Positions 1-64,000 of a stretch of DNA of 64,000 nucleotides are shown here, piece by piece. This DNA is from Escherichia phage vB_EcoS_HdK1: sequence record MK373794.1. One strand, written 5' to 3'. The position numbers and the translations under genes were made by a program. The number at the start of each line of letters is the position of its first letter. The first letter of the stretch is position 1. The notes under the pieces were generated by a model, which saw nothing but the letters and a program-made list of their open reading frames with translations, had not been told where the DNA came from and searched no databases.

Positions 1-105
1 TTTATATAAATACACACATATACACATTTTTACCTTATTTTTCATGCACTTACCTCCTTTCATTTCGTATATTAAGCGACAATATACGAGCAATATAAGA
101 AATAT

Positions 106-119
106 TTGTTGCGCAACAA
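106..119. repeat. Perfect 14-bp palindrome TTGTTGCGCAACAA in the non-coding control region (second copy at 60798..60811)
   Basis: Read directly from the sequence; lies in the ~1.07-kb non-coding region spanning 60336..60692 and 1..678. Confidence 0.6.
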
Positions 120-617
120 CGAGGCGCTCACAAGCTCGCGCACGCGCATAATGCGGGCACGCGGTCTAACACAAAAGAAAATTGAATTGCAAGCGATTTT
201 TGCTGAGGTAACTCTCGAAGCGAAAGCGATTTGCGAGTTTGAAATTTTGTAGCCCGAAAACGATTCTATTTTATGGTATAAATGTCGGATTTTTCGGTGA
301 AAGGTGGCTTTTCGGTGAGGTTGGGTGGCTGGGATCGGTGTAACTGGTAGCCCATAAAGCGAAAATAGCCGCGAAAACGGGGCACGCAGCGCGATTAAAT
401 GGTTGGATCAGTGTAAGGGTGGCGGTGAGGGGGCGAAAATGCCGCAAAATCGCTTACAGGGATGCAGGGAGTGGGCCGCTGTAAGGGCGTATAAGGCGAT
501 TAAATTGGAGTCTATGGTAATGTATGGAAGATGGATTTAGGCTCTTAGAGCGCGAATGGTGGAGCTATGGGTGAGGAATATGTGGTCAGCAGGGTAGCGC
601 GGGAGGTTATGCAGGTA

Positions 618-660
618 CAAAAACGAAAGCGCCCCGTTGGACTTCAACAGGGCGCGGATT
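618..660 (-). terminator. Rho-independent terminator ending the leftward early operon
   Basis: GC-rich inverted repeat GCGCCC..GGGCGC directly downstream of the stop of the 679..927 gene; on the minus strand it is followed by a T-rich tract. Confidence 0.55.
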
Positions 661-678
661 GTATAATGCTTTTAGAAG

Positions 679-927
679 TTATTTACTAGTTAATAATACC
701 GCCCAGGTATTATCTGGAAGCGTACCAACTCCGAGTATCTTAAACTGAAGCGACTTGTTCTGCATGTTGTAGTTGTCGAGTAACTCCTGGGCAGCCGCAG
801 CAGCGTTCGCTTCACCGTTCAGGTTGTAGTCGTTTGCAGTTATTGCACACATACCGAGACCGACCGCTTTGAAGCGCATACCTTTGGATTGAGTCGGTGC
901 AAGTGCTTTAACATGGATAGCGTTCAT
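679..927 (-). CDS. Hypothetical early protein, 82 aa (paralog family A)
   Basis: ORF track; shares an AAAA(Q/E)EL..F(K/E)ILG/SGG..P(D)..(W/Y)A pattern with the 1458..1703 product. Confidence 0.5.
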   Translation of the reverse strand: MNAIHVKALAPTQSKGMRFKAVGLGMCAITANDYNLNGEANAAAAAQELLDNYNMQNKSLQFKILGVGTLPDNTWAVLLTSK

Positions 928-956
928 ATTATTTATCTCCGTTACAATTTGAAAGG

Positions 957-1220
957 TTAGCAGTTTTTTAACAGGTTGATGAAGCCCACCAGCGTGGACG
1001 CTGTTGCAACCAGGCGGCCCATAGTATGCAGTTCCGCGTAAACTTTACCGTCGTCAAACACAGTTAAATAAACGTTAAGACCATTGCAACGGACGCGATA
1101 TTTGCGCGAGTTATTACCAAAAGTTTCCAGCTCTGCGGTGATAGTCGCAAGATTAGCTATACGTTTGCCGATAATGCGGCGAGTGATAGTGGACTGGTTT
1201 AATACTGTAGACATAATCAT
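957..1220 (-). CDS. Hypothetical early protein, 87 aa (paralog family B)
   Basis: ORF track; N-terminal motif STITRRIIGKRI matches SQITKRIIGKRL of the 2529..2835 product; AGAGG ribosome-binding site upstream. Confidence 0.5.
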   Translation of the reverse strand: MIMSTVLNQSTITRRIIGKRIANLATITAELETFGNNSRKYRVRCNGLNVYLTVFDDGKVYAELHTMGRLVATASTLVGFINLLKNC

Positions 1221-1245
1221 TTCCTCTGTTAACTATGCGAAGTGC

Positions 1246-1274
1246 ATATTATTGCCCACTGTTACTATGGGCAA
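1246..1274 (-). promoter_or_regulatory. Sigma70-like promoter (minus strand: -35 TTGCCC, 17-bp spacer, -10 TAATAT) overlapped by an inverted repeat (candidate operator)
   Basis: Hexamers and spacing read from the reverse complement; inverted repeat TTGCCCA-N9-TGGGCAA at 1252..1274 covers the -35 box and spacer; lies 26 bp upstream of the 957..1220 start. Confidence 0.45.
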
Positions 1275-1282
1275 TGTATATG

Positions 1283-1447
1283 TCACTCAGCGGACACATA
1301 TTCTAACGCTTCTGATAGTGTAGCGAAGTAACCATCGCTCACCAGATTAATAGCGTACTCAAGTTGATCGCGGGTCAGGTTGCGAAACTTGTTACGGATG
1401 TGATAGCAACGACCGCGATAAATAACCTGGAAATAGTTGCGTTCCAT
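1283..1447 (-). CDS. Hypothetical small protein, 54 aa
   Basis: Internal ATG of the 1283..1603 track ORF preceded by AAGGGG; the longer track ORF would overlap the neighbouring gene. Confidence 0.4.
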   Translation of the reverse strand: MERNYFQVIYRGRCYHIRNKFRNLTRDQLEYAINLVSDGYFATLSEALEYVSAE

Positions 1448-1457
1448 AATTATCCCC

Positions 1458-1703
1458 TTATGCAACGATGAACGCGTAACCGCTTTGATCCGGGAGTTCA
1501 CCACCGGAAAGAATTTCAAACTCAACGCCCGCTTTATCGCTGAACTTTTTGATAAGCTCTTCCGCTGCGGCGCGGTGGTTGCCGTAAACACCAAGATCGT
1601 CACGCCACGTGATAGTCAAGGAGCCGTTCCAACCTGTTGCTTTTACGCGCGGGTTACGGGTGGCAGTCGGGTTCATGAATTTTGTGATGATAGCTTGAGC
1701 CAT
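1458..1703 (-). CDS. Hypothetical early protein, 81 aa (paralog family A)
   Basis: ORF track; paralogous to the 679..927 product. Confidence 0.5.
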   Translation of the reverse strand: MAQAIITKFMNPTATRNPRVKATGWNGSLTITWRDDLGVYGNHRAAAEELIKKFSDKAGVEFEILSGGELPDQSGYAFIVA

Positions 1704-1708
1704 GATAA

Positions 1709-1894
1709 TTACTCCGGTAAAATTACAGTGACGTTAATATTTGCAAGGCGAGCGCACTCGCGGAAACCTTTTACATAAGCATCCATTTCGTCATAGGATG
1801 CGAAAGTTGCGTCCGGGACTGGTCCGTTGTTAATATTCACGCAATATTCGTGTTCGTCCAGGTCAACCCAACAAGTCAGAACGATAGTTTCCAT
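1709..1894 (-). CDS. Hypothetical small protein, about 61 aa
   Basis: Internal ATG (METIVL..) preceded by GGAGGG; acidic, Cys-containing. Confidence 0.4.
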   Translation of the reverse strand: METIVLTCWVDLDEHEYCVNINNGPVPDATFASYDEMDAYVKGFRECARLANINVTVILPE

Positions 1895-1972
1895 ATTATT
1901 TGCCCTCCGTATAATACAGACCCGCAACTATTGGAGCTCCGAAAACTAAGAAAGCTAATAAATAGAACATAA

Positions 1973-2452
1973 TTAGTTACCCCCTTTATTGTTGAGCCCG
2001 TTGAATTTACGCCATGCGTAGAATTCAATCGTTGCATTATTAATATTCCAACCATTAGCTTTCGCAAGGTCACGGACGTTACCAATAGTTGGCACACCAT
2101 CAGGCAACATATTATCCAGGGCATTCCAAACGTCTGCGCATTTACCTTTAATCGGGCGACGAACCCCGTTGCGCGTTTCGCTGCGCGTTTTGCTCTTGGC
2201 TGGAGCGACCGGAGCTTGTTGTGTGGTCACTTCCACGACAGTCGCTTTATCAGCTTCCACCAGATCGCTAGCTGCCTTATTAACCGCGCTTTCGCTGTAC
2301 CAGTAGCGACCACCGTCTTCGTGCGGTTCCTGGTGAATAAAGCTATTTGCTGTCGCAGTGTCCACATCCAGAACCTTTTTTAAGGCACGGCGAGCGTTAG
2401 ACATAGTGGCGAAGAAGCGAGCGTCTTTTGCTACGCGAGTGATAGTAACCAT
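1973..2452 (-). CDS. Hypothetical early protein, about 159 aa
   Basis: ORF track; start placed at the ATG preceded by GGAGAT; no recognisable catalytic motif. Confidence 0.45.
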   Translation of the reverse strand: MVTITRVAKDARFFATMSNARRALKKVLDVDTATANSFIHQEPHEDGGRYWYSESAVNKAASDLVEADKATVVEVTTQQAPVAPAKSKTRSETRNGVRRPIKGKCADVWNALDNMLPDGVPTIGNVRDLAKANGWNINNATIEFYAWRKFNGLNNKGGN

Positions 2453-2492
2453 TGTGAATATCTCCATGTTGTTCTAGCGGATTGCTAGTGGG

Positions 2493-2513
2493 AGCCCACT
2501 GTTACAATGGGCA
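2493..2513. repeat. Second copy of the conserved inverted-repeat element GCCCACTGTTAC(A/T)ATGGGCAA
   Basis: Near-identical to 1252..1274; both sit in intergenic gaps between leftward early genes. Confidence 0.55.
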
Positions 2514-2528
2514 ACCATTAGCACGCTA

Positions 2529-2835
2529 TTATTGTTGAATAGCTTTATCTATCATTGCGATGAAGCAGAACACAGACCAAAGGCTATTCGCTTGGCATAC
2601 TGCGCGACCATACATTACGCTATAAGAGCTGACAGTACCGTCCTCGTTAATGCGAATATATAACGCGGTGCTGGAATACTTTTCGTTGCCCGGGAGCATT
2701 ACTAAATACTCGTCGAAACCCCAATCCCCGTCGACTTTTTCCGCAGTAAGGCCCAGTTGGTGCAGTCGCTTGCCAATAATGCGCTTAGTAATCTGAGATT
2801 GGGACATGGAACGCGGTAAGTAGATAATGGACATA
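2529..2835 (-). CDS. Hypothetical early protein, about 102 aa (paralog family B)
   Basis: ORF track; start placed at the ATG preceded by AAGGGAG; paralogous to the 957..1220 product. Confidence 0.5.
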
Positions 2836-2909
2836 ATGCAATCTCCCTTCGGGTGAGGCGGGCGCGGAACCCGTGTCCCGCTTAACAACCCCCTTAACCC
2901 TACACAGTT

Positions 2910-2938
2910 ATAGTATGACAACGGGGTATCAGATGCAA
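2910..2938 (-). promoter_or_regulatory. Sigma70-like early promoter for the leftward operon (minus strand: -35 TTGCAT, 17 bp, -10 TACTAT)
   Basis: Hexamers and spacing read from the reverse complement, about 75 bp upstream of the first leftward gene. Confidence 0.4.
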
Positions 2939-3014
2939 CTATTATCTGCAATATTTTAGAACTTTTTTAGTTGTGTTTCATAATAATAACATCCGGGACT
3001 ATGCGGTAGATGGT

Positions 3015-3088
3015 GTGCCGGAAATACCAGGTAGCGCGAGCGTGCCGAAAATACCAGGTAACAGCACGCGCCGAACATACCAGGTAGC
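3015..3088. repeat. Three tandem ~27-bp iteron-like repeats (core ATACCAGGTA) followed by an AT-rich tract; candidate origin or protein-binding array (second copy 63707..63780)
   Basis: GTGCCGGAAATACCAGGTAGC / GTGCCGAAAATACCAGGTAAC / CGCCGAACATACCAGGTAGC read directly; AT-rich stretch at about 3130..3230. Confidence 0.55.
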
Positions 3089-3476
3089 ACATACATAGAC
3101 AGCACATAGTGGGCAGGTGGATAGTAACAGATGCAATTATACTGGACGGTACAGTATAGTCATGTAATAGATAGCATACTAATTAAATAAAAAATAATAA
3201 CGCGTGTAACAATAAACAACGTTACAGTAGAGCGCGCAACAGTCACATGACGTAACAATCACCTCACTGACGATCACGGGACGTTATAGTAACGCCGCGG
3301 GGCGGCTCTTAGATCTCTGCCAAGGATTCTAGACGTAAACATTGAATCGCCACTAGACTATTTACATCACAACCTCACTCCTCACACAATAATACATAGA
3401 ATTTAAATCCGTATATAAATACTCGAGATAGTATCTACATATTCGAGGATGAGTGCTCAATCATTGTAGGTTATAA

Positions 3477-3956
3477 ATGCGTATCAATTGGTGTGATTAT
3501 TTCTCTTACGAAGATGGTAGACTTTACTGGAAGGCCAGTAGAGGAAGAATACGAGTAGGTTCAGAAGCCGGAAGCGAGGACCAACAAGGTTACATTGTGG
3601 TCAGGTTAAACGGGAAAGATTATAAAGCCCACCGCATCATTTGGGAAATGCACTATGGGCCGATACCAGAAGGAATGGAAGTTGACCACATTTGGCATAA
3701 CCGAAAAGATAACCGGATTGAGAATCTGCGGTTAGTGACGCGTACAGGTAATGGGCGTAATCAGTCTAAATTTGCGACAAATACATCAGGTGTAACTGGT
3801 GTGAATTGGAATAGCCGGGCTGGTAAATGGAGAGCGGAAATTTATGTTGATGGAAAGCATATATCTCTTGGTTTATTCACAATCTTTAATGATGCTGTCT
3901 TAGCGCGTAAATCGGCCGAGGCTAAGTATGGTTTCCATAAAAATCATGGCGAGTGA
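3477..3956 (+). CDS. HNH endonuclease with a C-terminal AP2-like DNA-binding domain (homing-endonuclease type)
   Basis: HNH motif region AHRIIWEMHYGPIPEGMEVDHIWHNRKDNRIENLRLV, then a GVTGV..W.A.I pattern typical of AP2 domains. Confidence 0.8.
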   Translation: MRINWCDYFSYEDGRLYWKASRGRIRVGSEAGSEDQQGYIVVRLNGKDYKAHRIIWEMHYGPIPEGMEVDHIWHNRKDNRIENLRLVTRTGNGRNQSKFATNTSGVTGVNWNSRAGKWRAEIYVDGKHISLGLFTIFNDAVLARKSAEAKYGFHKNHGE

Positions 3957-4016: not shown

Positions 4017-4382
4017 ATGAACGAGAATATAGTTAAAGCCTGGTCTATCTTACGACCACAGCTGAAAGACGATCATGTCGCTTTTGTTTTATGTCCTGCT
4101 AACGAATATCGCCGGAAGCTCGAAGAAGTGTTGCGCGAAGATCCTGAGTTCGTTCGCTGTGTGCAACTGTCGCGCGAGTCATCTGTGGTACAGTTTGATC
4201 GTTTCCATCTTCGTTTGGTTTCTCATCACAGAGCATCGTATGAAGACACTGTTATTCGTACGAGTGGCTTTCATTGCGATATTGCAATTCTTGACTGCAA
4301 ACTGGACATTGGGCAGAAACAGGATTTATATAATCTCGCTCGTGAACGTCATGGTGAATTGTTAATTGTGGAAGTGCAATAA
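4017..4382 (+). CDS. Hypothetical protein, 121 aa
   Basis: ORF track; AAAGGGG ribosome-binding site; stop/start coupled to the next gene. Confidence 0.45.
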   Translation: MNENIVKAWSILRPQLKDDHVAFVLCPANEYRRKLEEVLREDPEFVRCVQLSRESSVVQFDRFHLRLVSHHRASYEDTVIRTSGFHCDIAILDCKLDIGQKQDLYNLARERHGELLIVEVQ

Positions 4383-4720
4383 TGGCCAAAGATATCGTTA
4401 TTCCGAAAATGTATTGTCAGCTCCGTGATACTTTATTACAGAGCGGCTGGATTATTAGTCACAGCGATGTAAATGACACTTATATCGTTCTTATACCACC
4501 TGAAGGAACGATATCTTGCATTTTGCACTATATGCCCGAAGCAAAGACGGTTTATCCGAACGGGTCGTTCTTGCTTCGTCTGCGCTCCGACACATGGAAG
4601 ATCCAGACTGATACCTGTGCAATTGACGAGAATACCAGTAAAGAGTTTATTCGCAAGCTAACTCAGCTGAATAAAATCTACGAGCATGTTAAATTTGATT
4701 TGTTTAAGGAAGTGTTCTAA
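4382..4720 (+). CDS. Hypothetical protein, 112 aa
   Basis: ORF track; start/stop overlap coupling. Confidence 0.45.
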   Translation: MAKDIVIPKMYCQLRDTLLQSGWIISHSDVNDTYIVLIPPEGTISCILHYMPEAKTVYPNGSFLLRLRSDTWKIQTDTCAIDENTSKEFIRKLTQLNKIYEHVKFDLFKEVF

Positions 4721-5160
4721 TGGTTACTATTAACGATCGCATCACACATAAAACTCAGCCGACAATGATGTCTTGCATGGCAGCCTGTTTGGCTATGCTT
4801 CTTGACAGGGATGTTGAAGAGGTTGACAACGAATTCAGCCTAGACTACGTTCGTGGGTATATTGATGTTGCTACTTATCTATATCGACAAGGTATCTTTG
4901 CACAGCCACATATCACTGCCGGTATGCACCAAATATATCCAGGGCGCTTGTATCTTGCGACTGTACCTTCTTTGCAGTTACCTGGGCTTTTCCATCAGAT
5001 CATTATTGACGCTCGTTTTGACGGTGTAACCGTATACGATCCAGCTAAAGGTCTGGAAGGGAAACAATATTATTCCTATGACCACATTGCAGAAGAAAAC
5101 GAGCTGGCGTATCCTTTGCGGTCTTTCTTGATTGATTACGAAATTATATTACCGGAGTGA
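4720..5160 (+). CDS. Putative papain-like cysteine peptidase (C39-like)
   Basis: N-terminal Q-x5-C-x-A-A-C-L-A-M-L pattern (QPTMMSCMAACLAMLL) resembles the catalytic Gln/Cys signature of C39 peptidases; downstream His in a hydrophobic context (GLFHQIIID). Confidence 0.45.
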   Translation: MVTINDRITHKTQPTMMSCMAACLAMLLDRDVEEVDNEFSLDYVRGYIDVATYLYRQGIFAQPHITAGMHQIYPGRLYLATVPSLQLPGLFHQIIIDARFDGVTVYDPAKGLEGKQYYSYDHIAEENELAYPLRSFLIDYEIILPE

Positions 5161-5163
5161 TTC

Positions 5164-5517
5164 ATGAGCTTGCAACGTTTTGACAATGCAGAACTCGCGT
5201 GTGAATTTGCAAAGCGCAAGTTCGCTAAAACAGGTACGCCGCGATGCGTGCACGCGGCTATTGGGCAAAATGGGGCAAAGTATTGGTACGTTGGTACAGT
5301 AGCTCAGATCAAGCGAAGATTCGCGACTACGCTCGAAATGCGCCGGCTTGGGTCCCCTACACTTGTACGAAACAGGCACTTGGATAAAGAGGAAATTTAT
5401 CAATTTCTCAGAAATTACACTGGTAAAGAGAATAGATTTCAGGTTGCAGCGAAAGAGTTTAATATTGGTCTTTCCACTGCTTATAAAATTTATCACATAT
5501 ATGGGCGTTTAATATGA
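5164..5517 (+). CDS. Hypothetical protein with a C-terminal helix-turn-helix-like segment
   Basis: Segment AAKEFNIGLSTAYKIY fits an HTH pattern. Confidence 0.35.
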   Translation: MSLQRFDNAELACEFAKRKFAKTGTPRCVHAAIGQNGAKYWYVGTVAQIKRRFATTLEMRRLGSPTLVRNRHLDKEEIYQFLRNYTGKENRFQVAAKEFNIGLSTAYKIYHIYGRLI

Positions 5518-6017
5518 CCGCAATTGCTTATCGTAATGGGATATTAGCTGTAGATCGACAGGTTACATGGGGTAATATTGCAACGACTACGAATAAAGTT
5601 CATACTATCAGTATTCCAGGGATTGGTCTGTGTCTTGTTGCCATGTCTGGTAAACTACGTGCTGTAGATGACATTGTAGAACATTTACAAACTACGTCAC
5701 GTGGACGCAAAGAACCTTTCTCAGATTTAAACCCAGATTCGCGTTATGGTATTGCTGTGACGCAGGAACTTGTCGTATATCCTATCTACGGGGATGGTAA
5801 ATTAGGTCTACCGGACACTAACGAATTTATTGCGGAAGGTAGTGCGTTTGAGTTCTTGATGGGTGCAATGGCGGGAGGTTGCACCGCCGAAGAGGCTGTA
5901 CGACTGGCGTGCGTATACTGCGACAGTTGTGGTCAAGGGGTTAAGTTCTATGACGTAGCTTATACTCTAAAGTGGCGCAGTGTAAAATCGAGGAGAAACC
6001 ATTTTGAAGAAGCCTAA
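5514..6017 (+). CDS. Putative Ntn-hydrolase peptidase (HslV/proteasome-like)
   Basis: N-terminus MTAIAYRNGILAVDRQVTWGN parallels the HslV N-terminus with Thr directly after the initiator Met; G-rich hydrophobic cores follow. Confidence 0.4.
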   Translation: MTAIAYRNGILAVDRQVTWGNIATTTNKVHTISIPGIGLCLVAMSGKLRAVDDIVEHLQTTSRGRKEPFSDLNPDSRYGIAVTQELVVYPIYGDGKLGLPDTNEFIAEGSAFEFLMGAMAGGCTAEEAVRLACVYCDSCGQGVKFYDVAYTLKWRSVKSRRNHFEEA

Positions 6018-6195
6018 GACTGGTCTGTTCCTTTGTGTTGGTGGACCTTTTGACGGTAAGCGTATACGCTTAACAACATCAGATTTGTATCCAAGTTCTT
6101 CCGTTTTCTCTGTTCCATCCTATAAAAACGGTGAGAAGGGGAAATACGTCTGGAATGATGAAATTCGAAACAGTGTAATCTGGAGAACATCGTGA
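6004..6195 (+). CDS. Hypothetical small protein, 63 aa
   Basis: ORF track (TTG start). Confidence 0.3.
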   Translation: MKKPKTGLFLCVGGPFDGKRIRLTTSDLYPSSSVFSVPSYKNGEKGKYVWNDEIRNSVIWRTS

Positions 6196-6419
6196 GTGAT
6201 TCTACAAATGCGCAATTAGCCGCTGCAAGAGTGTATATGCGCGGAGCTGCCGCTGAGATTGATGCTTTGCCACAATTTGAAAAGCATGTACAGCAACTCG
6301 AAGATAAATTTAAGACTCTTAAAGATCTAGGGGATACGAAAGATGCTATAGCCTTTCTTCTTGCTATCCAATACTTGTCTATGGGGGTTGGTGACAAAGT
6401 ATGTTCCTTAGAAGAATAA
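6192..6419 (+). CDS. Hypothetical small protein, 75 aa
   Basis: ORF track (GTG start). Confidence 0.3.
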   Translation: MSDSTNAQLAAARVYMRGAAAEIDALPQFEKHVQQLEDKFKTLKDLGDTKDAIAFLLAIQYLSMGVGDKVCSLEE

Positions 6420-6931
6420 TTGGTATTGTTGCACCTTGGATACCACTTGTCATAATTGTTATTCTAGCCAACTGGGCTTATGACAATGCCATAGAATCAG
6501 CTAGAAAGGAGGGTTTCGATGCCGGTGTGTCGTACCAAAAAGAAACTCAGAAAGCGGTTGATTTCGAGGAGGAGAAACGAAGAGCGTATGAGAAAGACAC
6601 TATCGAACGTCAGTACAGATCTCGTATTGAATCTTTGGTTGCGATCTTAATAATTATCGCGCTACTAATGACAGGTTGCACAACGAAATCGCAACCGTCC
6701 GTAAGTACCTCGGTGACGCTACCGGCCCTCAGCCCGACAGCAAGACAACCGCCCAGATCGCCCGTGTGCTCACCGAGCTGTATTCAGAAAGCGTCACAGA
6801 ATACAGACAAGTGGCAGAAGAGGCTGAAAAGTATCGTATTGCCGGCGAGCAGTGCGAACTACAGTATGATGCAATGCGAAATCCGCGTAAAGAAAAGTGA
6901 TAAACTGCAAAGTCCTTGCCGGGTTGCGTAA
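6401..6931 (+). CDS. Candidate spanin locus: N-terminal transmembrane protein (i-spanin-like) whose frame also carries an internal lipobox and Pro-rich segment (o-spanin-like)
   Basis: N-terminal TMD IIGIVAPWIPLVIIVILA, charged helical region, then LLMTGC lipobox followed by a Pro/Cys-rich tail; sits directly upstream of the endolysin-like and holin genes. Confidence 0.4.
   Translation: MFLRRIIGIVAPWIPLVIIVILANWAYDNAIESARKEGFDAGVSYQKETQKAVDFEEEKRRAYEKDTIERQYRSRIESLVAILIIIALLMTGCTTKSQPSVSTSVTLPALSPTARQPPRSPVCSPSCIQKASQNTDKWQKRLKSIVLPASSANYSMMQCEIRVKKSDKLQSPCRVA
6676..6900 (+). CDS. Embedded alternate-frame ORF with coiled-coil character (possible C-terminal part of the i-spanin)
   Basis: Charged helical sequence lying wholly inside 6401..6931 in another frame; this frame is open from 6631. 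Confidence 0.3.
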   Translation: MHNEIATVRKYLGDATGPQPDSKTTAQIARVLTELYSESVTEYRQVAEEAEKYRIAGEQCELQYDAMRNPRKEK

Positions 6932-7022
6932 CTAAACGTTCAATCTTAATTGCACATAATTGATTGTGTACATGTGATAATTCAACTATGCTCTATTCGG
7001 TTTAACTGAATGGAGCTTTTTT

Positions 7023-7457
7023 ATGACTGTGCAACCACGAGGTATCCGGAATAACAATCCGGGAAATATTCGTTGGGGTGATAATTGGAAAGGTCTTGTT
7101 CCTGAAAACAAACGGACTGACCGTTCCTTCTGTCAATTTATCGATGTAAAATACGGTATTCGCGCCATTGCGCGTATTCTACTAAACTACCGCAACCGCG
7201 AAGGAATGAAACGTGTCGGAAACAAAGGGATTGACACTGTACGGGAGATTATTTCGCGCTGGGCTCCGCCGAATGAAAATAACACTGAAGCCTATATTCA
7301 ATCTGTGGCTAAGGCTTGTGGTGTTGGTGCAGAACAGCCGATTTCAGTGACCGATGATAAAATCATGCTTGCAATCGTGAAAGCGATTATCAAACATGAG
7401 AACGGTGTGCAACCTTATTCTGATGAAGTTTTGCTCGCGGGTATTCACATGGCATAG
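7023..7457 (+). CDS. Putative endolysin (peptidoglycan hydrolase), 144 aa
   Basis: Conserved N-terminal GIRNNNPGNIRWGDNWKG motif; position between the spanin candidate and the holin; GGAG ribosome-binding site. Confidence 0.5.
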   Translation: MTVQPRGIRNNNPGNIRWGDNWKGLVPENKRTDRSFCQFIDVKYGIRAIARILLNYRNREGMKRVGNKGIDTVREIISRWAPPNENNTEAYIQSVAKACGVGAEQPISVTDDKIMLAIVKAIIKHENGVQPYSDEVLLAGIHMA

Positions 7458-7470
7458 TAAGAGGTTATAA

Positions 7471-7779
7471 GTGTCGCCGAACTGGGATTGGAATATAGTT
7501 TTTATTCTCACTGCCATTGCGATGGTAGGGGGTTCCCTTGGCTACGCTGCAAGAACCCATGATGCTAAAGAAAGGTTCAGACTTAGTGTCTTCATTCAAG
7601 AGGGTGCTTTTTCTGCATTCTTTGGTTTCTTGATAGGTGTAATTAACGTGGAACATGGTGTCTCACTGGGGCTCAGTGGGGCGTTCATAGGCGTGTTATC
7701 TTGGTCCGGTTCAAGAACCATGCTAAAGTTTCTACGGAGAAAGACAGAAGCATGTGACCGAGAAAAGGAAAGAGGTTGA
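7471..7779 (+). CDS. Putative holin, 102 aa
   Basis: Small protein with at least two hydrophobic helices and a charged C-terminus, adjacent to the endolysin-like gene. Confidence 0.55.
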   Translation: MSPNWDWNIVFILTAIAMVGGSLGYAARTHDAKERFRLSVFIQEGAFSAFFGFLIGVINVEHGVSLGLSGAFIGVLSWSGSRTMLKFLRRKTEACDREKERG

Positions 7780-60545: not shown

Positions 60546-61309
60546 CAGCAATATACGAAACGGCGAAGCGAAGTGTATGAAAAATAAGGGAAAATTTCGA
60601 GAGTTGGGAGGTTTGTAGTGATTTATATTATTTATAAAGGGGTCTCGTGGGGTCGTCAGTAGACAACTCAAAAATAAAAAATCTTTATAAAATTTATATA
60701 AATACACACATATACACATTTTTACCTTATTTTTCATGCACTTACCTCCTTTCATTTCGTATATTAAGCGACAATATACGAGCAATATAAGAAATATTTG
60801 TTGCGCAACAACGAGGCGCTCACAAGCTCGCGCACGCGCATAATGCGGGCACGCGGTCTAACACAAAAGAAAATTGAATTGCAAGCGATTTTTGCTGAGG
60901 TAACTCTCGAAGCGAAAGCGATTTGCGAGTTTGAAATTTTGTAGCCCGAAAACGATTCTATTTTATGGTATAAATGTCGGATTTTTCGGTGAAAGGTGGC
61001 TTTTCGGTGAGGTTGGGTGGCTGGGATCGGTGTAACTGGTAGCCCATAAAGCGAAAATAGCCGCGAAAACGGGGCACGCAGCGCGATTAAATGGTTGGAT
61101 CAGTGTAAGGGTGGCGGTGAGGGGGCGAAAATGCCGCAAAATCGCTTACAGGGATGCAGGGAGTGGGCCGCTGTAAGGGCGTATAAGGCGATTAAATTGG
61201 AGTCTATGGTAATGTATGGAAGATGGATTTAGGCTCTTAGAGCGCGAATGGTGGAGCTATGGGTGAGGAATATGTGGTCAGCAGGGTAGCGCGGGAGGTT
61301 ATGCAGGTA

Positions 61310-61352
61310 CAAAAACGAAAGCGCCCCGTTGGACTTCAACAGGGCGCGGATT
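61310..61352 (-). terminator. Second copy of the early-operon terminator (same as 618..660)
   Basis: Within the terminal duplication. Confidence 0.55.
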
Positions 61353-61370
61353 GTATAATGCTTTTAGAAG

Positions 61371-61619
61371 TTATTTACTAGTTAATAATACCGCCCAGGT
61401 ATTATCTGGAAGCGTACCAACTCCGAGTATCTTAAACTGAAGCGACTTGTTCTGCATGTTGTAGTTGTCGAGTAACTCCTGGGCAGCCGCAGCAGCGTTC
61501 GCTTCACCGTTCAGGTTGTAGTCGTTTGCAGTTATTGCACACATACCGAGACCGACCGCTTTGAAGCGCATACCTTTGGATTGAGTCGGTGCAAGTGCTT
61601 TAACATGGATAGCGTTCAT
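61371..61619 (-). CDS. Duplicate of the 679..927 gene (paralog family A)
   Basis: Identical translation in the ORF track. Confidence 0.5.
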   Translation of the reverse strand: MNAIHVKALAPTQSKGMRFKAVGLGMCAITANDYNLNGEANAAAAAQELLDNYNMQNKSLQFKILGVGTLPDNTWAVLLTSK

Positions 61620-61648
61620 ATTATTTATCTCCGTTACAATTTGAAAGG

Positions 61649-61912
61649 TTAGCAGTTTTTTAACAGGTTGATGAAGCCCACCAGCGTGGACGCTGTTGCA
61701 ACCAGGCGGCCCATAGTATGCAGTTCCGCGTAAACTTTACCGTCGTCAAACACAGTTAAATAAACGTTAAGACCATTGCAACGGACGCGATATTTGCGCG
61801 AGTTATTACCAAAAGTTTCCAGCTCTGCGGTGATAGTCGCAAGATTAGCTATACGTTTGCCGATAATGCGGCGAGTGATAGTGGACTGGTTTAATACTGT
61901 AGACATAATCAT
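61649..61912 (-). CDS. Duplicate of the 957..1220 gene (paralog family B)
   Basis: Identical translation in the ORF track. Confidence 0.5.
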   Translation of the reverse strand: MIMSTVLNQSTITRRIIGKRIANLATITAELETFGNNSRKYRVRCNGLNVYLTVFDDGKVYAELHTMGRLVATASTLVGFINLLKNC

Positions 61913-61974
61913 TTCCTCTGTTAACTATGCGAAGTGCATATTATTGCCCACTGTTACTATGGGCAATGTATATG

Positions 61975-62139
61975 TCACTCAGCGGACACATATTCTAACG
62001 CTTCTGATAGTGTAGCGAAGTAACCATCGCTCACCAGATTAATAGCGTACTCAAGTTGATCGCGGGTCAGGTTGCGAAACTTGTTACGGATGTGATAGCA
62101 ACGACCGCGATAAATAACCTGGAAATAGTTGCGTTCCAT
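61975..62139 (-). CDS. Duplicate of the 1283..1447 gene
   Basis: Within the terminal duplication. Confidence 0.4.
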   Translation of the reverse strand: MERNYFQVIYRGRCYHIRNKFRNLTRDQLEYAINLVSDGYFATLSEALEYVSAE

Positions 62140-62149
62140 AATTATCCCC

Positions 62150-62395
62150 TTATGCAACGATGAACGCGTAACCGCTTTGATCCGGGAGTTCACCACCGGA
62201 AAGAATTTCAAACTCAACGCCCGCTTTATCGCTGAACTTTTTGATAAGCTCTTCCGCTGCGGCGCGGTGGTTGCCGTAAACACCAAGATCGTCACGCCAC
62301 GTGATAGTCAAGGAGCCGTTCCAACCTGTTGCTTTTACGCGCGGGTTACGGGTGGCAGTCGGGTTCATGAATTTTGTGATGATAGCTTGAGCCAT
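62150..62395 (-). CDS. Duplicate of the 1458..1703 gene
   Basis: Identical translation in the ORF track. Confidence 0.5.
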   Translation of the reverse strand: MAQAIITKFMNPTATRNPRVKATGWNGSLTITWRDDLGVYGNHRAAAEELIKKFSDKAGVEFEILSGGELPDQSGYAFIVA

Positions 62396-62400
62396 GATAA

Positions 62401-62586
62401 TTACTCCGGTAAAATTACAGTGACGTTAATATTTGCAAGGCGAGCGCACTCGCGGAAACCTTTTACATAAGCATCCATTTCGTCATAGGATGCGAAAGTT
62501 GCGTCCGGGACTGGTCCGTTGTTAATATTCACGCAATATTCGTGTTCGTCCAGGTCAACCCAACAAGTCAGAACGATAGTTTCCAT
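62401..62586 (-). CDS. Duplicate of the 1709..1894 gene
   Basis: Within the terminal duplication. Confidence 0.4.
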   Translation of the reverse strand: METIVLTCWVDLDEHEYCVNINNGPVPDATFASYDEMDAYVKGFRECARLANINVTVILPE

Positions 62587-62664
62587 ATTATTTGCCCTCC
62601 GTATAATACAGACCCGCAACTATTGGAGCTCCGAAAACTAAGAAAGCTAATAAATAGAACATAA

Positions 62665-63144
62665 TTAGTTACCCCCTTTATTGTTGAGCCCGTTGAATTT
62701 ACGCCATGCGTAGAATTCAATCGTTGCATTATTAATATTCCAACCATTAGCTTTCGCAAGGTCACGGACGTTACCAATAGTTGGCACACCATCAGGCAAC
62801 ATATTATCCAGGGCATTCCAAACGTCTGCGCATTTACCTTTAATCGGGCGACGAACCCCGTTGCGCGTTTCGCTGCGCGTTTTGCTCTTGGCTGGAGCGA
62901 CCGGAGCTTGTTGTGTGGTCACTTCCACGACAGTCGCTTTATCAGCTTCCACCAGATCGCTAGCTGCCTTATTAACCGCGCTTTCGCTGTACCAGTAGCG
63001 ACCACCGTCTTCGTGCGGTTCCTGGTGAATAAAGCTATTTGCTGTCGCAGTGTCCACATCCAGAACCTTTTTTAAGGCACGGCGAGCGTTAGACATAGTG
63101 GCGAAGAAGCGAGCGTCTTTTGCTACGCGAGTGATAGTAACCAT
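62665..63144 (-). CDS. Duplicate of the 1973..2452 gene
   Basis: Identical translation in the ORF track. Confidence 0.45.
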   Translation of the reverse strand: MVTITRVAKDARFFATMSNARRALKKVLDVDTATANSFIHQEPHEDGGRYWYSESAVNKAASDLVEADKATVVEVTTQQAPVAPAKSKTRSETRNGVRRPIKGKCADVWNALDNMLPDGVPTIGNVRDLAKANGWNINNATIEFYAWRKFNGLNNKGGN

Positions 63145-63220
63145 TGTGAATATCTCCATGTTGTTCTAGCGGATTGCTAGTGGGAGCCCACTGTTACAAT
63201 GGGCAACCATTAGCACGCTA

Positions 63221-63527
63221 TTATTGTTGAATAGCTTTATCTATCATTGCGATGAAGCAGAACACAGACCAAAGGCTATTCGCTTGGCATACTGCGCGAC
63301 CATACATTACGCTATAAGAGCTGACAGTACCGTCCTCGTTAATGCGAATATATAACGCGGTGCTGGAATACTTTTCGTTGCCCGGGAGCATTACTAAATA
63401 CTCGTCGAAACCCCAATCCCCGTCGACTTTTTCCGCAGTAAGGCCCAGTTGGTGCAGTCGCTTGCCAATAATGCGCTTAGTAATCTGAGATTGGGACATG
63501 GAACGCGGTAAGTAGATAATGGACATA
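63221..63527 (-). CDS. Duplicate of the 2529..2835 gene
   Basis: Identical translation in the ORF track. Confidence 0.5.
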
Positions 63528-63706
63528 ATGCAATCTCCCTTCGGGTGAGGCGGGCGCGGAACCCGTGTCCCGCTTAACAACCCCCTTAACCCTACACAGT
63601 TATAGTATGACAACGGGGTATCAGATGCAACTATTATCTGCAATATTTTAGAACTTTTTTAGTTGTGTTTCATAATAATAACATCCGGGACTATGCGGTA
63701 GATGGT

Positions 63707-63780
63707 GTGCCGGAAATACCAGGTAGCGCGAGCGTGCCGAAAATACCAGGTAACAGCACGCGCCGAACATACCAGGTAGC
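63707..63780. repeat. Second copy of the three tandem iteron-like repeats (same as 3015..3088)
   Basis: Within the terminal duplication. Confidence 0.55.
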
Positions 63781-64000
63781 ACATACATAGACAGCACATA
63801 GTGGGCAGGTGGATAGTAACAGATGCAATTATACTGGACGGTACAGTATAGTCATGTAATAGATAGCATACTAATTAAATAAAAAATAATAACGCGTGTA
63901 ACAATAAACAACGTTACAGTAGAGCGCGCAACAGTCACATGACGTAACAATCACCTCACTGACGATCACGGGACGTTATAGTAACGCCGCGGGGCGGCTC

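What the first reader, a model, noticed from the sequence alone, without database searches (positions are those of the whole stretch)
4720..6017. Two peptidase-like genes in the early rightward region (C39-like Cys peptidase and HslV-like Ntn hydrolase)
The 4720..5160 product carries a Gln/Cys signature (QPTMMSCMAACLAMLL) like papain-fold C39 peptidases, and the 5514..6017 product begins MTAIAYRNGILAVDRQVTWGN, closely paralleling the HslV/proteasome N-terminus with catalytic Thr directly after the initiator Met. They are separated only by a small HTH-like gene. Two proteases in a phage early region are unusual and suggest a host-takeover, processing or anti-defence role.
Basis: inference. Interest (0 to 1): 0.6.

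Follow-up and report, generated by a model that had tools for sequence, protein, structure and literature searches.

The report
Two conserved phage peptidase genes

Summary
The window is a 60.7-kb Nonagvirus (phage 9g-like) genome. ORFs 4720-5160 (146 aa) and 5514-6017 (167 aa) are real genes under purifying selection.

Both labels already exist in public annotation: PHROG 1040 "peptidase HslV family", and "papain-like cysteine protease" in phage ESCO3. No functional study was found.

The pair is syntenic across enterobacterial Queuovirinae, and each gene also occurs alone in other phage groups. The "early region" claim is unproven: the genes head the rightward block that runs into the lysis and packaging genes.

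The best lead on function is that standalone C39-like toxins (Cpe1, StbD-CT) cleave host GyrB/ParE at a Gly-Gly site, and the Kuttervirus homolog lies between that phage's own topoisomerase II subunit genes. Overall these are new members of known enzyme kinds, of moderate interest.

The parts
4720..5160 (+). Gene for a standalone C39-like (clan CA, papain-fold) cysteine peptidase, 146 aa. Predicted catalytic residues are Gln13 (oxyanion), Cys19, His92 and Asp107, with a second near-invariant Cys23.
5164..5517 (+). Small 117-aa gene between the two peptidase genes, with a possible C-terminal helix-turn-helix. It is the most conserved gene of the cluster within Nonagvirus but is not conserved across genera.
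   Evidence: Weak HTH_7/HTH_23 hits at residues 71-113 (E 0.09-0.19). PHROG 17085, unknown function. The positional equivalent in Klebsiella phage Kpn2-P2 weakly hits PHROG 532 'late transcriptional activator' (E 1.9e-4). BLASTP between the two gives only E 0.085. Seurat has a 61-aa hydrophobic protein in this position. dN/dS 0-0.16.
5514..6017 (+). Gene for a propeptide-less HslV-like Ntn threonine peptidase (family T1 fold), 167 aa. Thr2 corresponds to Thr1, Asp14 to Asp17 and Lys28 to Lys33; Gly46 and Gly109 are invariant.
4017..4720 (+). Two upstream, translationally coupled genes of unknown function in the same operon (121 aa and 112 aa). The 112-aa gene also directly precedes the C39-like gene in Klebsiella phage Kpn2-P2.
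Evidence: ORFs with overlapping stop/start codons. PHROGs 17838 and 21152. Kpn2-P2 synteny.
6004..6419 (+). Two small downstream genes (63 aa and 75 aa) that link the peptidase genes to the lysis cassette.
   Evidence: ORFs. PHROGs 12090 and 19774, unknown function. Annotated in HdSG1 and JenP2.
6401..7779 (+). Lysis cassette immediately downstream: Rz-like spanin (6401-6931), a terminator-like hairpin (6990-7016), endolysin (7023-7457) and holin (7471-7779).
   Evidence: PHROG hits for spanin and endolysin. Relatives' annotation. Hairpin from the consensus scan.
2952..3476 (.). Highly conserved divergent intergenic region upstream of the rightward operon. It has sigma70-like promoter matches in both directions and three 16-nt direct repeats.
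   Evidence: Near-invariant alignment with HdSG1, JenP2 and ESCO3. Promoter-like sites. Repeat CCGAAMATACCAGGTA occurs three times against 0.07 expected by chance.

Best explanation
Shown: these are two real, conserved accessory genes of a Nonagvirus phage.

Shown by fold and residue conservation: both encode catalytically competent cytoplasmic peptidases.
- The 146-aa protein is a free-standing C39-type cysteine peptidase (Gln13/Cys19/His92/Asp107). It lacks the ABC-transporter body that normally carries this domain.
- The 167-aa protein is an HslV-type N-terminal-nucleophile threonine peptidase. Removal of the initiator Met exposes its nucleophile, Thr2.

Inferred for the cysteine peptidase: like every characterised close structural relative, it makes site-specific cuts at a Gly-Gly-type motif, in one or a few cytoplasmic host (or phage) proteins.

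Inferred for the HslV-like subunit: it assembles into HslV-like rings and degrades unfolded substrates. Because the phage encodes no unfoldase, it most likely either borrows the host's HslU or acts on peptides without a partner.

The two genes are independent modules that have become syntenic in enterobacterial Queuovirinae. They are transcribed rightward from the divergent control region, ahead of the lysis genes, and most likely serve host manipulation rather than virion assembly.
For: ORFs, coupling and selection.

C39-like protein:
- Confident model.
- Of 774 representative clusters, 110 diverse members conserve only Q13, C19, H92, D107 and P108.
- Twenty-four of 110 members hit Pfam Peptidase_C39.
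- HMM alignment to LahT pairs the Gln and Cys and lines up the conserved His and DP motifs.
- The catalytic spacing equals that published for StbD-CT (Gln177/Cys183/Cys187/His258/Asp275).

HslV-like protein:
- PHROG 1040 and a confident model.
- Invariant MTAIA...D14...K28...G46, with a full-length hhalign mapping onto E. coli HslV.

No HslU or other unfoldase is annotated in the collinear JenP2 genome, and others have noted the same for phage HslV genes.

Synteny holds in at least 21 listed Queuovirinae records at 30-40% identity. Each gene occurs alone elsewhere. Genes in those other contexts are small hypothetical or DNA-metabolism genes, not morphogenesis genes.
Against: - The window proteins themselves reach no Pfam or NCBIfam threshold, and profile-to-PDB sequence hits are weak.
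- Catalytic geometry could not be measured because model coordinates are not exposed.
- No substrate, oligomeric state or HslU interaction was testable.
- In the hhalign mapping a 2-residue gap falls at HslV Met27-Lys28. From memory, Lys28 helps bind the HslU C-terminus, which would argue against canonical docking.
- The deposited phage 9g sequence has a frameshifted HslV-like gene, so the gene may be dispensable, or that may be a sequencing error.
- Expression timing is unknown.
Confidence: 0.6

Rival explanations
1. The C39-like enzyme is a phage-borne counterpart of the interbacterial toxins Cpe1 and StbD-CT. It would cleave host GyrB and ParE between the two glycines of LHAGGKF, shutting down host chromosome topology as a takeover step.
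Against: PCAT1, LahT and ComA are closer structural matches than StbD-CT. There is no significant sequence link to the toxins. The topoisomerase adjacency is confined to Kuttervirus, and other contexts show none. Nonagvirus encodes no topoisomerase of its own, so destroying gyrase might hurt the phage. From memory, loss of the Gly-Gly is a general trait of T4/eukaryote-type topo II rather than a specific adaptation.
Confidence: 0.1
2. The C39-like enzyme is an anti-defence deconjugase. It would remove ubiquitin-like modifiers, which end in Gly or Gly-Gly, that bacterial Bil-type or CBASS Cap2-type systems attach to phage or host proteins.
Against: The DUB families score clearly lower than the C39 domains. 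There are no PADLOC or anti-defence family hits. No phenotype data link Queuovirinae to these systems.
Confidence: 0.07
3. One or both enzymes belong to the lysis programme. The C39-like protein could be a peptidoglycan or lipoprotein isopeptidase released through the holin. The HslV-like protease could degrade an envelope-biogenesis factor.
Confidence: 0.08
4. The HslV-like protein is a non-degradative decoy that titrates host HslU, protecting a phage protein from HslUV.
For: The phage encodes no HslU. From memory, phages are known to inhibit host proteases, for example T4 PinA against Lon.
Against: The Thr1/Asp17/Lys33 equivalents and the MTAIA N-terminus are invariant down to 30% identity. 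A pure binder would not need them. The gap at HslV Lys28 argues against canonical HslU docking.
Confidence: 0.07
5. One of the enzymes is the prohead or virion maturation protease of this phage group.
For: No canonical prohead protease is annotated between the portal, scaffold and major head genes in JenP2.
Against: The genes lie outside the morphogenesis module. A separate scaffolding protein is present. Homologs occur in phages with unrelated head modules, including Kuttervirus, Vequintavirinae and jumbo phages. The HslV-like gene is frameshifted in the deposited sequence of the viable phage 9g.
Confidence: 0.04

Closest known systems
C39 peptidase domains of AMS/PCAT bacteriocin exporters (PCAT1 8vp3/7s5j, LahT150 6mpz, ComA 5xe8/3k8u)
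   Different: The phage protein is free-standing, with no ABC transporter, no secreted-peptide locus and no membrane association. The window protein is below the Pfam threshold. It has an extra near-invariant Cys at +4 that is absent in LahT. Its substrate is unknown.
Interbacterial papain-like cysteine protease toxins Cpe1 (PMC12136450) and StbD-CT (bioRxiv 10.64898/2026.05.07.723447; PDB 8ssm/8ssk)
   Different: The toxins are delivered by T6SS or CDI as fusions and come with a dedicated immunity gene. The phage gene has no delivery domain and no conserved downstream partner. Cleavage of GyrB/ParE by the phage enzyme is untested.
HslV (ClpQ), the peptidase subunit of the HslUV ATP-dependent protease (e.g. 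T. maritima 1m4y)
Orphan bacterial proteasome homologs BPH (5ovs/5ovu) and Anbu (5loy)
   Different: They score slightly lower than HslV. Their ring symmetry and operon contexts differ (from memory). The oligomeric state of the phage protein is unknown.
Pseudomurein endoisopeptidase PeiR (8z4h)
   Different: PeiR is a larger protein (228 aa) that acts on archaeal pseudomurein. The phage protein shows no cell-wall-binding or export features, and its link to lysis genes is lineage-specific.

Membership tests
Peptidase family C39 (MEROPS C39 / Pfam PF03412, clan CA) | Papain-like alpha+beta fold closest to C39 domains | tested here: met
Peptidase family C39 (MEROPS C39 / Pfam PF03412, clan CA) | Catalytic Cys/His/Asp with an oxyanion Gln six residues before the Cys | tested here: met
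   Q13, C19, H92 and D107 (plus P108) are the only invariant columns among 110 homologs with mean column identity 23%. They align with the Q, C, H and DP of LahT150. The 3-D geometry itself could not be measured because no coordinates are available.
Peptidase family C39 (MEROPS C39 / Pfam PF03412, clan CA) | Sequence match to the family model above the curated threshold | tested here: inconclusive
   The window protein gets no Pfam hit even at E 10. Twenty-four of 110 family members hit PF03412, best E 2.4e-6.
Peptidase family C39 (MEROPS C39 / Pfam PF03412, clan CA) | N-terminal domain of an ABC exporter that removes double-glycine leaders from bacteriocins or quorum peptides | tested here: not met
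   It is a stand-alone 146-aa ORF. No transporter is annotated in the collinear genome. Most of the 150 best homologs are also 135-160 aa.
Peptidase family C39 (MEROPS C39 / Pfam PF03412, clan CA) | Cleavage after a Gly-Gly motif | not testable with these tools
   This needs biochemistry.
Cpe1 / StbD-CT type topoisomerase-cleaving PLCP toxins | Free-standing ComA/LahT-like protease domain active in the cytoplasm | tested here: met
Cpe1 / StbD-CT type topoisomerase-cleaving PLCP toxins | Fusion or linkage to T6SS/CDI delivery domains and a cognate immunity gene | tested here: not met
   It is a phage gene, and its downstream neighbour varies: HTH-like gene, small membrane protein, topoisomerase subunit or resolvase.
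Cpe1 / StbD-CT type topoisomerase-cleaving PLCP toxins | Cleaves GyrB G101-G102 and ParE G97-G98 | not testable with these tools
   There is only circumstantial synteny in Kuttervirus.
Peptidase family T1, HslV subfamily | Ntn-hydrolase alpha-beta-beta-alpha sandwich closest to HslV/proteasome beta subunits | tested here: met
Peptidase family T1, HslV subfamily | N-terminal Thr nucleophile (Thr1) exposed without a propeptide | tested here: met
   The MTAIA start is invariant in 27 homologs. No upstream in-frame start exists. Removal of the initiator Met before Thr is expected from established methionine aminopeptidase specificity.
Peptidase family T1, HslV subfamily | Asp17 and Lys33 catalytic partners, plus the Gly45/47 loop and the GSG segment | tested here: met
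   D14 and K28 are invariant and map to Asp17 and Lys33. G46 and G109 are invariant. S110, the Ser124/129 equivalent, is conserved in most members but not all. The exact register of G46 against Gly45 is ambiguous in the sequence alignments.
Peptidase family T1, HslV subfamily | Sequence match to curated family models | tested here: inconclusive
   PHROG 1040 'peptidase HslV family' matches at E 3.5e-35. Pfam Proteasome is hit by only 1 of 27 members, at E 0.11. There are no NCBIfam hits. The profile against PDB HslV chains gives E 0.035.
Peptidase family T1, HslV subfamily | Works with a cognate HslU AAA+ unfoldase (adjacent gene in bacteria) | tested here: not met
   No HslU or AAA+ unfoldase is annotated in the collinear JenP2 genome. 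Use of the host's HslU cannot be tested here.
Peptidase family T1, HslV subfamily | Double-ring (dodecameric) self-compartmentalised assembly | not testable with these tools

The most novel reading that the evidence does not exclude
The phage C39-like enzyme is a viral version of the Cpe1/StbD-CT interbacterial toxins. It would cut host gyrase (GyrB) and topoisomerase IV (ParE) at the conserved LHAGGKF Gly-Gly site to disable the host chromosome, while phages such as Kuttervirus carry a cleavage-resistant topoisomerase II encoded around the same gene. In parallel, the HslV-like subunit would hijack the host's HslU to redirect ATP-dependent proteolysis. Together they would form a proteolytic host-takeover module in Queuovirinae.
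Probability: 0.1. Interest if true: 0.75.

Novelty: new member of a known kind. Interest (0 to 1): 0.35.

Why it matters
Phage-encoded proteases with known host targets are few. If these two enzymes are active, they would be tractable examples of proteolytic host manipulation in a well-used phage group, since Nonagvirus and Seuratvirus phages are in the BASEL collection. The C39-like family is large (774 representative clusters), is labelled 'unknown function' in PHROGs, and now has a concrete, testable candidate substrate class through the Cpe1/StbD-CT precedent. The orphan HslV-like gene raises a direct question: can a virus re-programme a host AAA+ unfoldase by supplying its own peptidase ring? 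If they turn out to be ordinary accessory genes, the gain is limited to a better annotation of PHROG 4049.

Tried and rejected
- Single-sequence searches of both proteins against PDB, Pfam, NCBIfam and PADLOC gave nothing significant.
- Profile-to-PDB searches gave only weak hits.
- Model coordinates are not exposed, so catalytic distances could not be measured.
- The annotation of phage CSP1C looks shifted by one gene and was not used.
- The 'late transcriptional activator' label for the intervening gene rests on an E 1.9e-4 match to an HTH only, and was not adopted.
- Domain fusions in the C39-like family were uninformative: YunG-like, Zn-ribbon and unannotated extensions.
- The search for a Gly-Gly substrate in the operon found only a Nonagvirus-specific 63-aa ORF (MKKPKTGLFLCVGG/PFDGK). 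It is not conserved in other genera, so it is not a general partner.
- The topoisomerase adjacency was sought in Vequintavirinae, Samunavirus, Vibrio Queuovirinae and Halocynthia phage and was not found.
- An HslV-like gene was sought downstream of the C39-like gene in Vibrio phage pVco-14 and was not found.
- Literature searches for functional work on phage HslV or C39-like genes, or for Queuovirinae transcriptomes, found only descriptive mentions.
- I could not confirm that PDB 9l5u is Cpe1.

Full report
**What the window is.** The region matches Nonagvirus phages (Queuovirinae; phage 9g, JenP2, HdSG1) at 90-97% identity. The first 3,308 bases of the window are identical to the last 3,308, so the window wraps a 60,692-bp genome. 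The region under study is single-copy.

**Checking the observation.** ORFs 4720-5160 (146 aa) and 5514-6017 (167 aa) are present with the quoted motifs. Only a 117-aa ORF (5164-5517) separates them.
- All three starts are coupled to the preceding stop: TAATG with an AAGGAAG ribosome-binding site, TGA-TTC-ATG with GGAG, and an ATGA overlap.
- No in-frame start lies upstream of 5514, so Met-Thr is the only possible N-terminus.
- Both proteins fall in phage protein families: PHROG 4049 (unknown function, E 4e-56) and PHROG 1040 ('peptidase HslV family', E 3.5e-35).
- dN/dS against relatives is 0.05-0.23 for the first gene and about 0.10 for the second.

**The 146-aa protein.** Direct Pfam, NCBIfam, PADLOC and PDB sequence searches gave nothing.
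- An alignment of 22 homologs gave a confident AlphaFold model (pLDDT 93.5).
- Other papain-fold families score lower: staphopain 8.1, AvrPphB 7.2, AvrRpt2 6.4, NlpC/P60 about 5.5.
- An exhaustive profile search found 774 representative clusters, mostly stand-alone proteins of 135-160 aa.
- In an alignment of 110 of them (mean column identity 23%) the only invariant positions are Gln13, Cys19, His92, Asp107 and Pro108.
- Those positions align with the Gln, Cys, His and Asp-Pro of LahT150, and 24 of the 110 members hit Pfam Peptidase_C39, best E 2.4e-6.
- The protein is therefore a catalytically intact C39-like clan CA peptidase. It is free-standing, which fails the transporter-domain criterion of canonical C39 enzymes.

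**The 167-aa protein.** The model is confident (pLDDT 92.5).
- The MTAIA N-terminus, Asp14, Lys28, Gly46 and Gly109 are invariant in 27 homologs down to 30% identity.
- A full-length hhalign to E. coli HslV maps Thr2, Asp14 and Lys28 onto Thr1, Asp17 and Lys33.
- The first hairpin and the 60-75 segment are shorter than in HslV, and a 2-residue gap falls at HslV Met27-Lys28.
- It is an HslV-type Ntn threonine peptidase with no propeptide.

**Context.** The collinear JenP2 map shows a rightward block running in this order: small genes, C39-like, HTH-like, HslV-like, two small genes, spanin, endolysin, holin, terminase, portal, scaffold, capsid, tail. A leftward block holds replication and 7-deazaguanine genes.
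- No HslU or other unfoldase, no topoisomerase and no canonical prohead protease are annotated.
- Upstream lies a 500-bp divergent intergenic region that is nearly invariant among relatives. It has sigma70-like matches in both directions.
- The promoter scan is not above chance (21 sites against 15.4 ± 3.5), and I found no expression data. 'Early' therefore remains plausible but unproven.
- A terminator-like hairpin (6990-7016) separates spanin from endolysin.

**Distribution.** tblastn finds the C39-like gene in 139 phage records and the HslV-like gene in 80.
- Both occur about 650 bp apart in at least 21 listed records: Nonagvirus, Seuratvirus, and Klebsiella, Aeromonas and Hafnia relatives. 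This holds even at 30-40% identity.
- The intervening gene varies: HTH-like in Nonagvirus, a 61-aa hydrophobic protein in Seurat.
- The C39-like gene occurs alone in Kuttervirus, Vequintavirinae, Samunavirus and Vibrio Queuovirinae, usually among small hypothetical or DNA-metabolism genes.
- The HslV-like gene occurs alone in jumbo Erwinia and Salmonella phages, in Aeromonas phages and in Edwardsiella phage PEi21.
- These are two independent accessory modules that became syntenic in one lineage.

**What is already known.**
- RefSeq and PHROG annotation already calls the second gene 'peptidase HslV family'.
- ESCO3 calls the first 'papain-like cysteine protease (AvrRpt2)' and the second 'proteasome subunit alpha type-2'. 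Both are in the right superfamily but neither is the closest family.
- Genome papers note phage HslV genes without HslU but report no function.
- All significant BFVD structural neighbours of the C39-like model are uncharacterised.

**Mechanism.** What is shown is two intact active-site signatures on confident folds under purifying selection.
- I infer that the cysteine peptidase makes site-specific cuts at Gly-Gly-type motifs in cytoplasmic proteins, as its characterised C39-type relatives do.
- I infer that the HslV-like subunit forms rings that degrade unfolded substrates, either with the host's HslU or alone.
- The strongest functional lead comes from two recent studies. The free-standing ComA/LahT-like toxins Cpe1 (PMC12136450) and StbD-CT (bioRxiv 10.64898/2026.05.07.723447) cleave GyrB G101-G102 and ParE G97-G98 in LHAGGKF.
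- In Kuttervirus the homolog lies between the phage's two topoisomerase II subunit genes. That enzyme reads LYAGSNF at the site.
- Against this, the adjacency is lineage-specific, sequence similarity to the toxins is not significant, and Nonagvirus has no topoisomerase of its own. I rate this reading at about 10%.
- Deubiquitinase-like anti-defence, lysis-associated isopeptidase, HslU decoy and prohead protease readings are each less supported (see the rival explanations).

**Verdict.** The biological reading is untested, and the 'early' and 'unusual' claims are overstated. These are new members of known enzyme kinds with unknown substrates, of moderate interest.

Noticed in passing
window 1-3308 and 60693-64000: The two stretches are 100% identical, so the 64-kb window wraps around (or concatenates) a 60,692-bp phage genome.
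   Followed up: yes
window 2952-3440: This divergent intergenic region is almost invariant among Nonagvirus relatives, more conserved than the flanking genes. It carries three direct repeats of CCGAAMATACCAGGTA at 3018-3033, 3045-3060 and 3071-3086 (0.07 expected by chance) and sigma70-like promoter matches in both directions. It may be a regulatory hub or an origin.
   Followed up: partly
window 3477-3956: This HNH endonuclease gene (PF13392, E 1e-22, plus a weak AP2 domain) is absent from all 17 close relatives. The slot holds a small ORF in HdSG1 and JenP2 and nothing in ESCO3, so it is probably a mobile homing endonuclease insertion.
   Followed up: partly
L012:1646-2149 (phage 9g NC_024146, 30245-30748): In the deposited sequence of the type phage 9g, the HslV-like gene is frameshifted (net -1 nt around codon 60) and only its C-terminal 83 aa are annotated. 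This is either a real pseudogene, which would mean the gene is dispensable, or a sequencing error.
   Followed up: partly
window about 5967: A 1-nt difference relative to relatives shifts the frame of the last ~14 codons of the window's HslV-like gene (…KWRSVKSRRNHFEEA instead of …KMAQCKPEEEPF). The ORF then overlaps the next gene by 14 nt.
   Followed up: partly
window 4017-4382: The first gene of the coupled operon (121 aa, PHROG 17838) is noted as 'potential sigma factor' in the phage 9g record and gives a weak NCBIfam sigma-factor hit (E 0.046). If real, it would bear on the timing and regulation of the operon.
   Followed up: no
window 6990-7016: A terminator-like hairpin (12-bp stem followed by TTTTTT) lies between the spanin and endolysin genes. 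It may separate the peptidase/spanin unit from endolysin and holin.
   Followed up: no
L010:2986-3435 (Salmonella phage allotria NC_049501): The Kuttervirus homolog of the C39-like gene sits between the topoisomerase II large and medium subunit genes, with overlapping stops. The large subunit reads LYAGSNF where GyrB has the toxin-cleaved LHAGGKF.
   Followed up: partly
window 6004-6195: The 63-aa ORF directly after the HslV-like gene begins (L/M)KKPKTGLFLCVGG-PFDGK, with a Gly-Gly 13-14 residues from the N-terminus. The motif is conserved in Nonagvirus, but the gene is replaced by unrelated ORFs in Seuratvirus and Kpn2-P2. It is a possible lineage-specific C39 substrate, but that is speculative.
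   Followed up: partly
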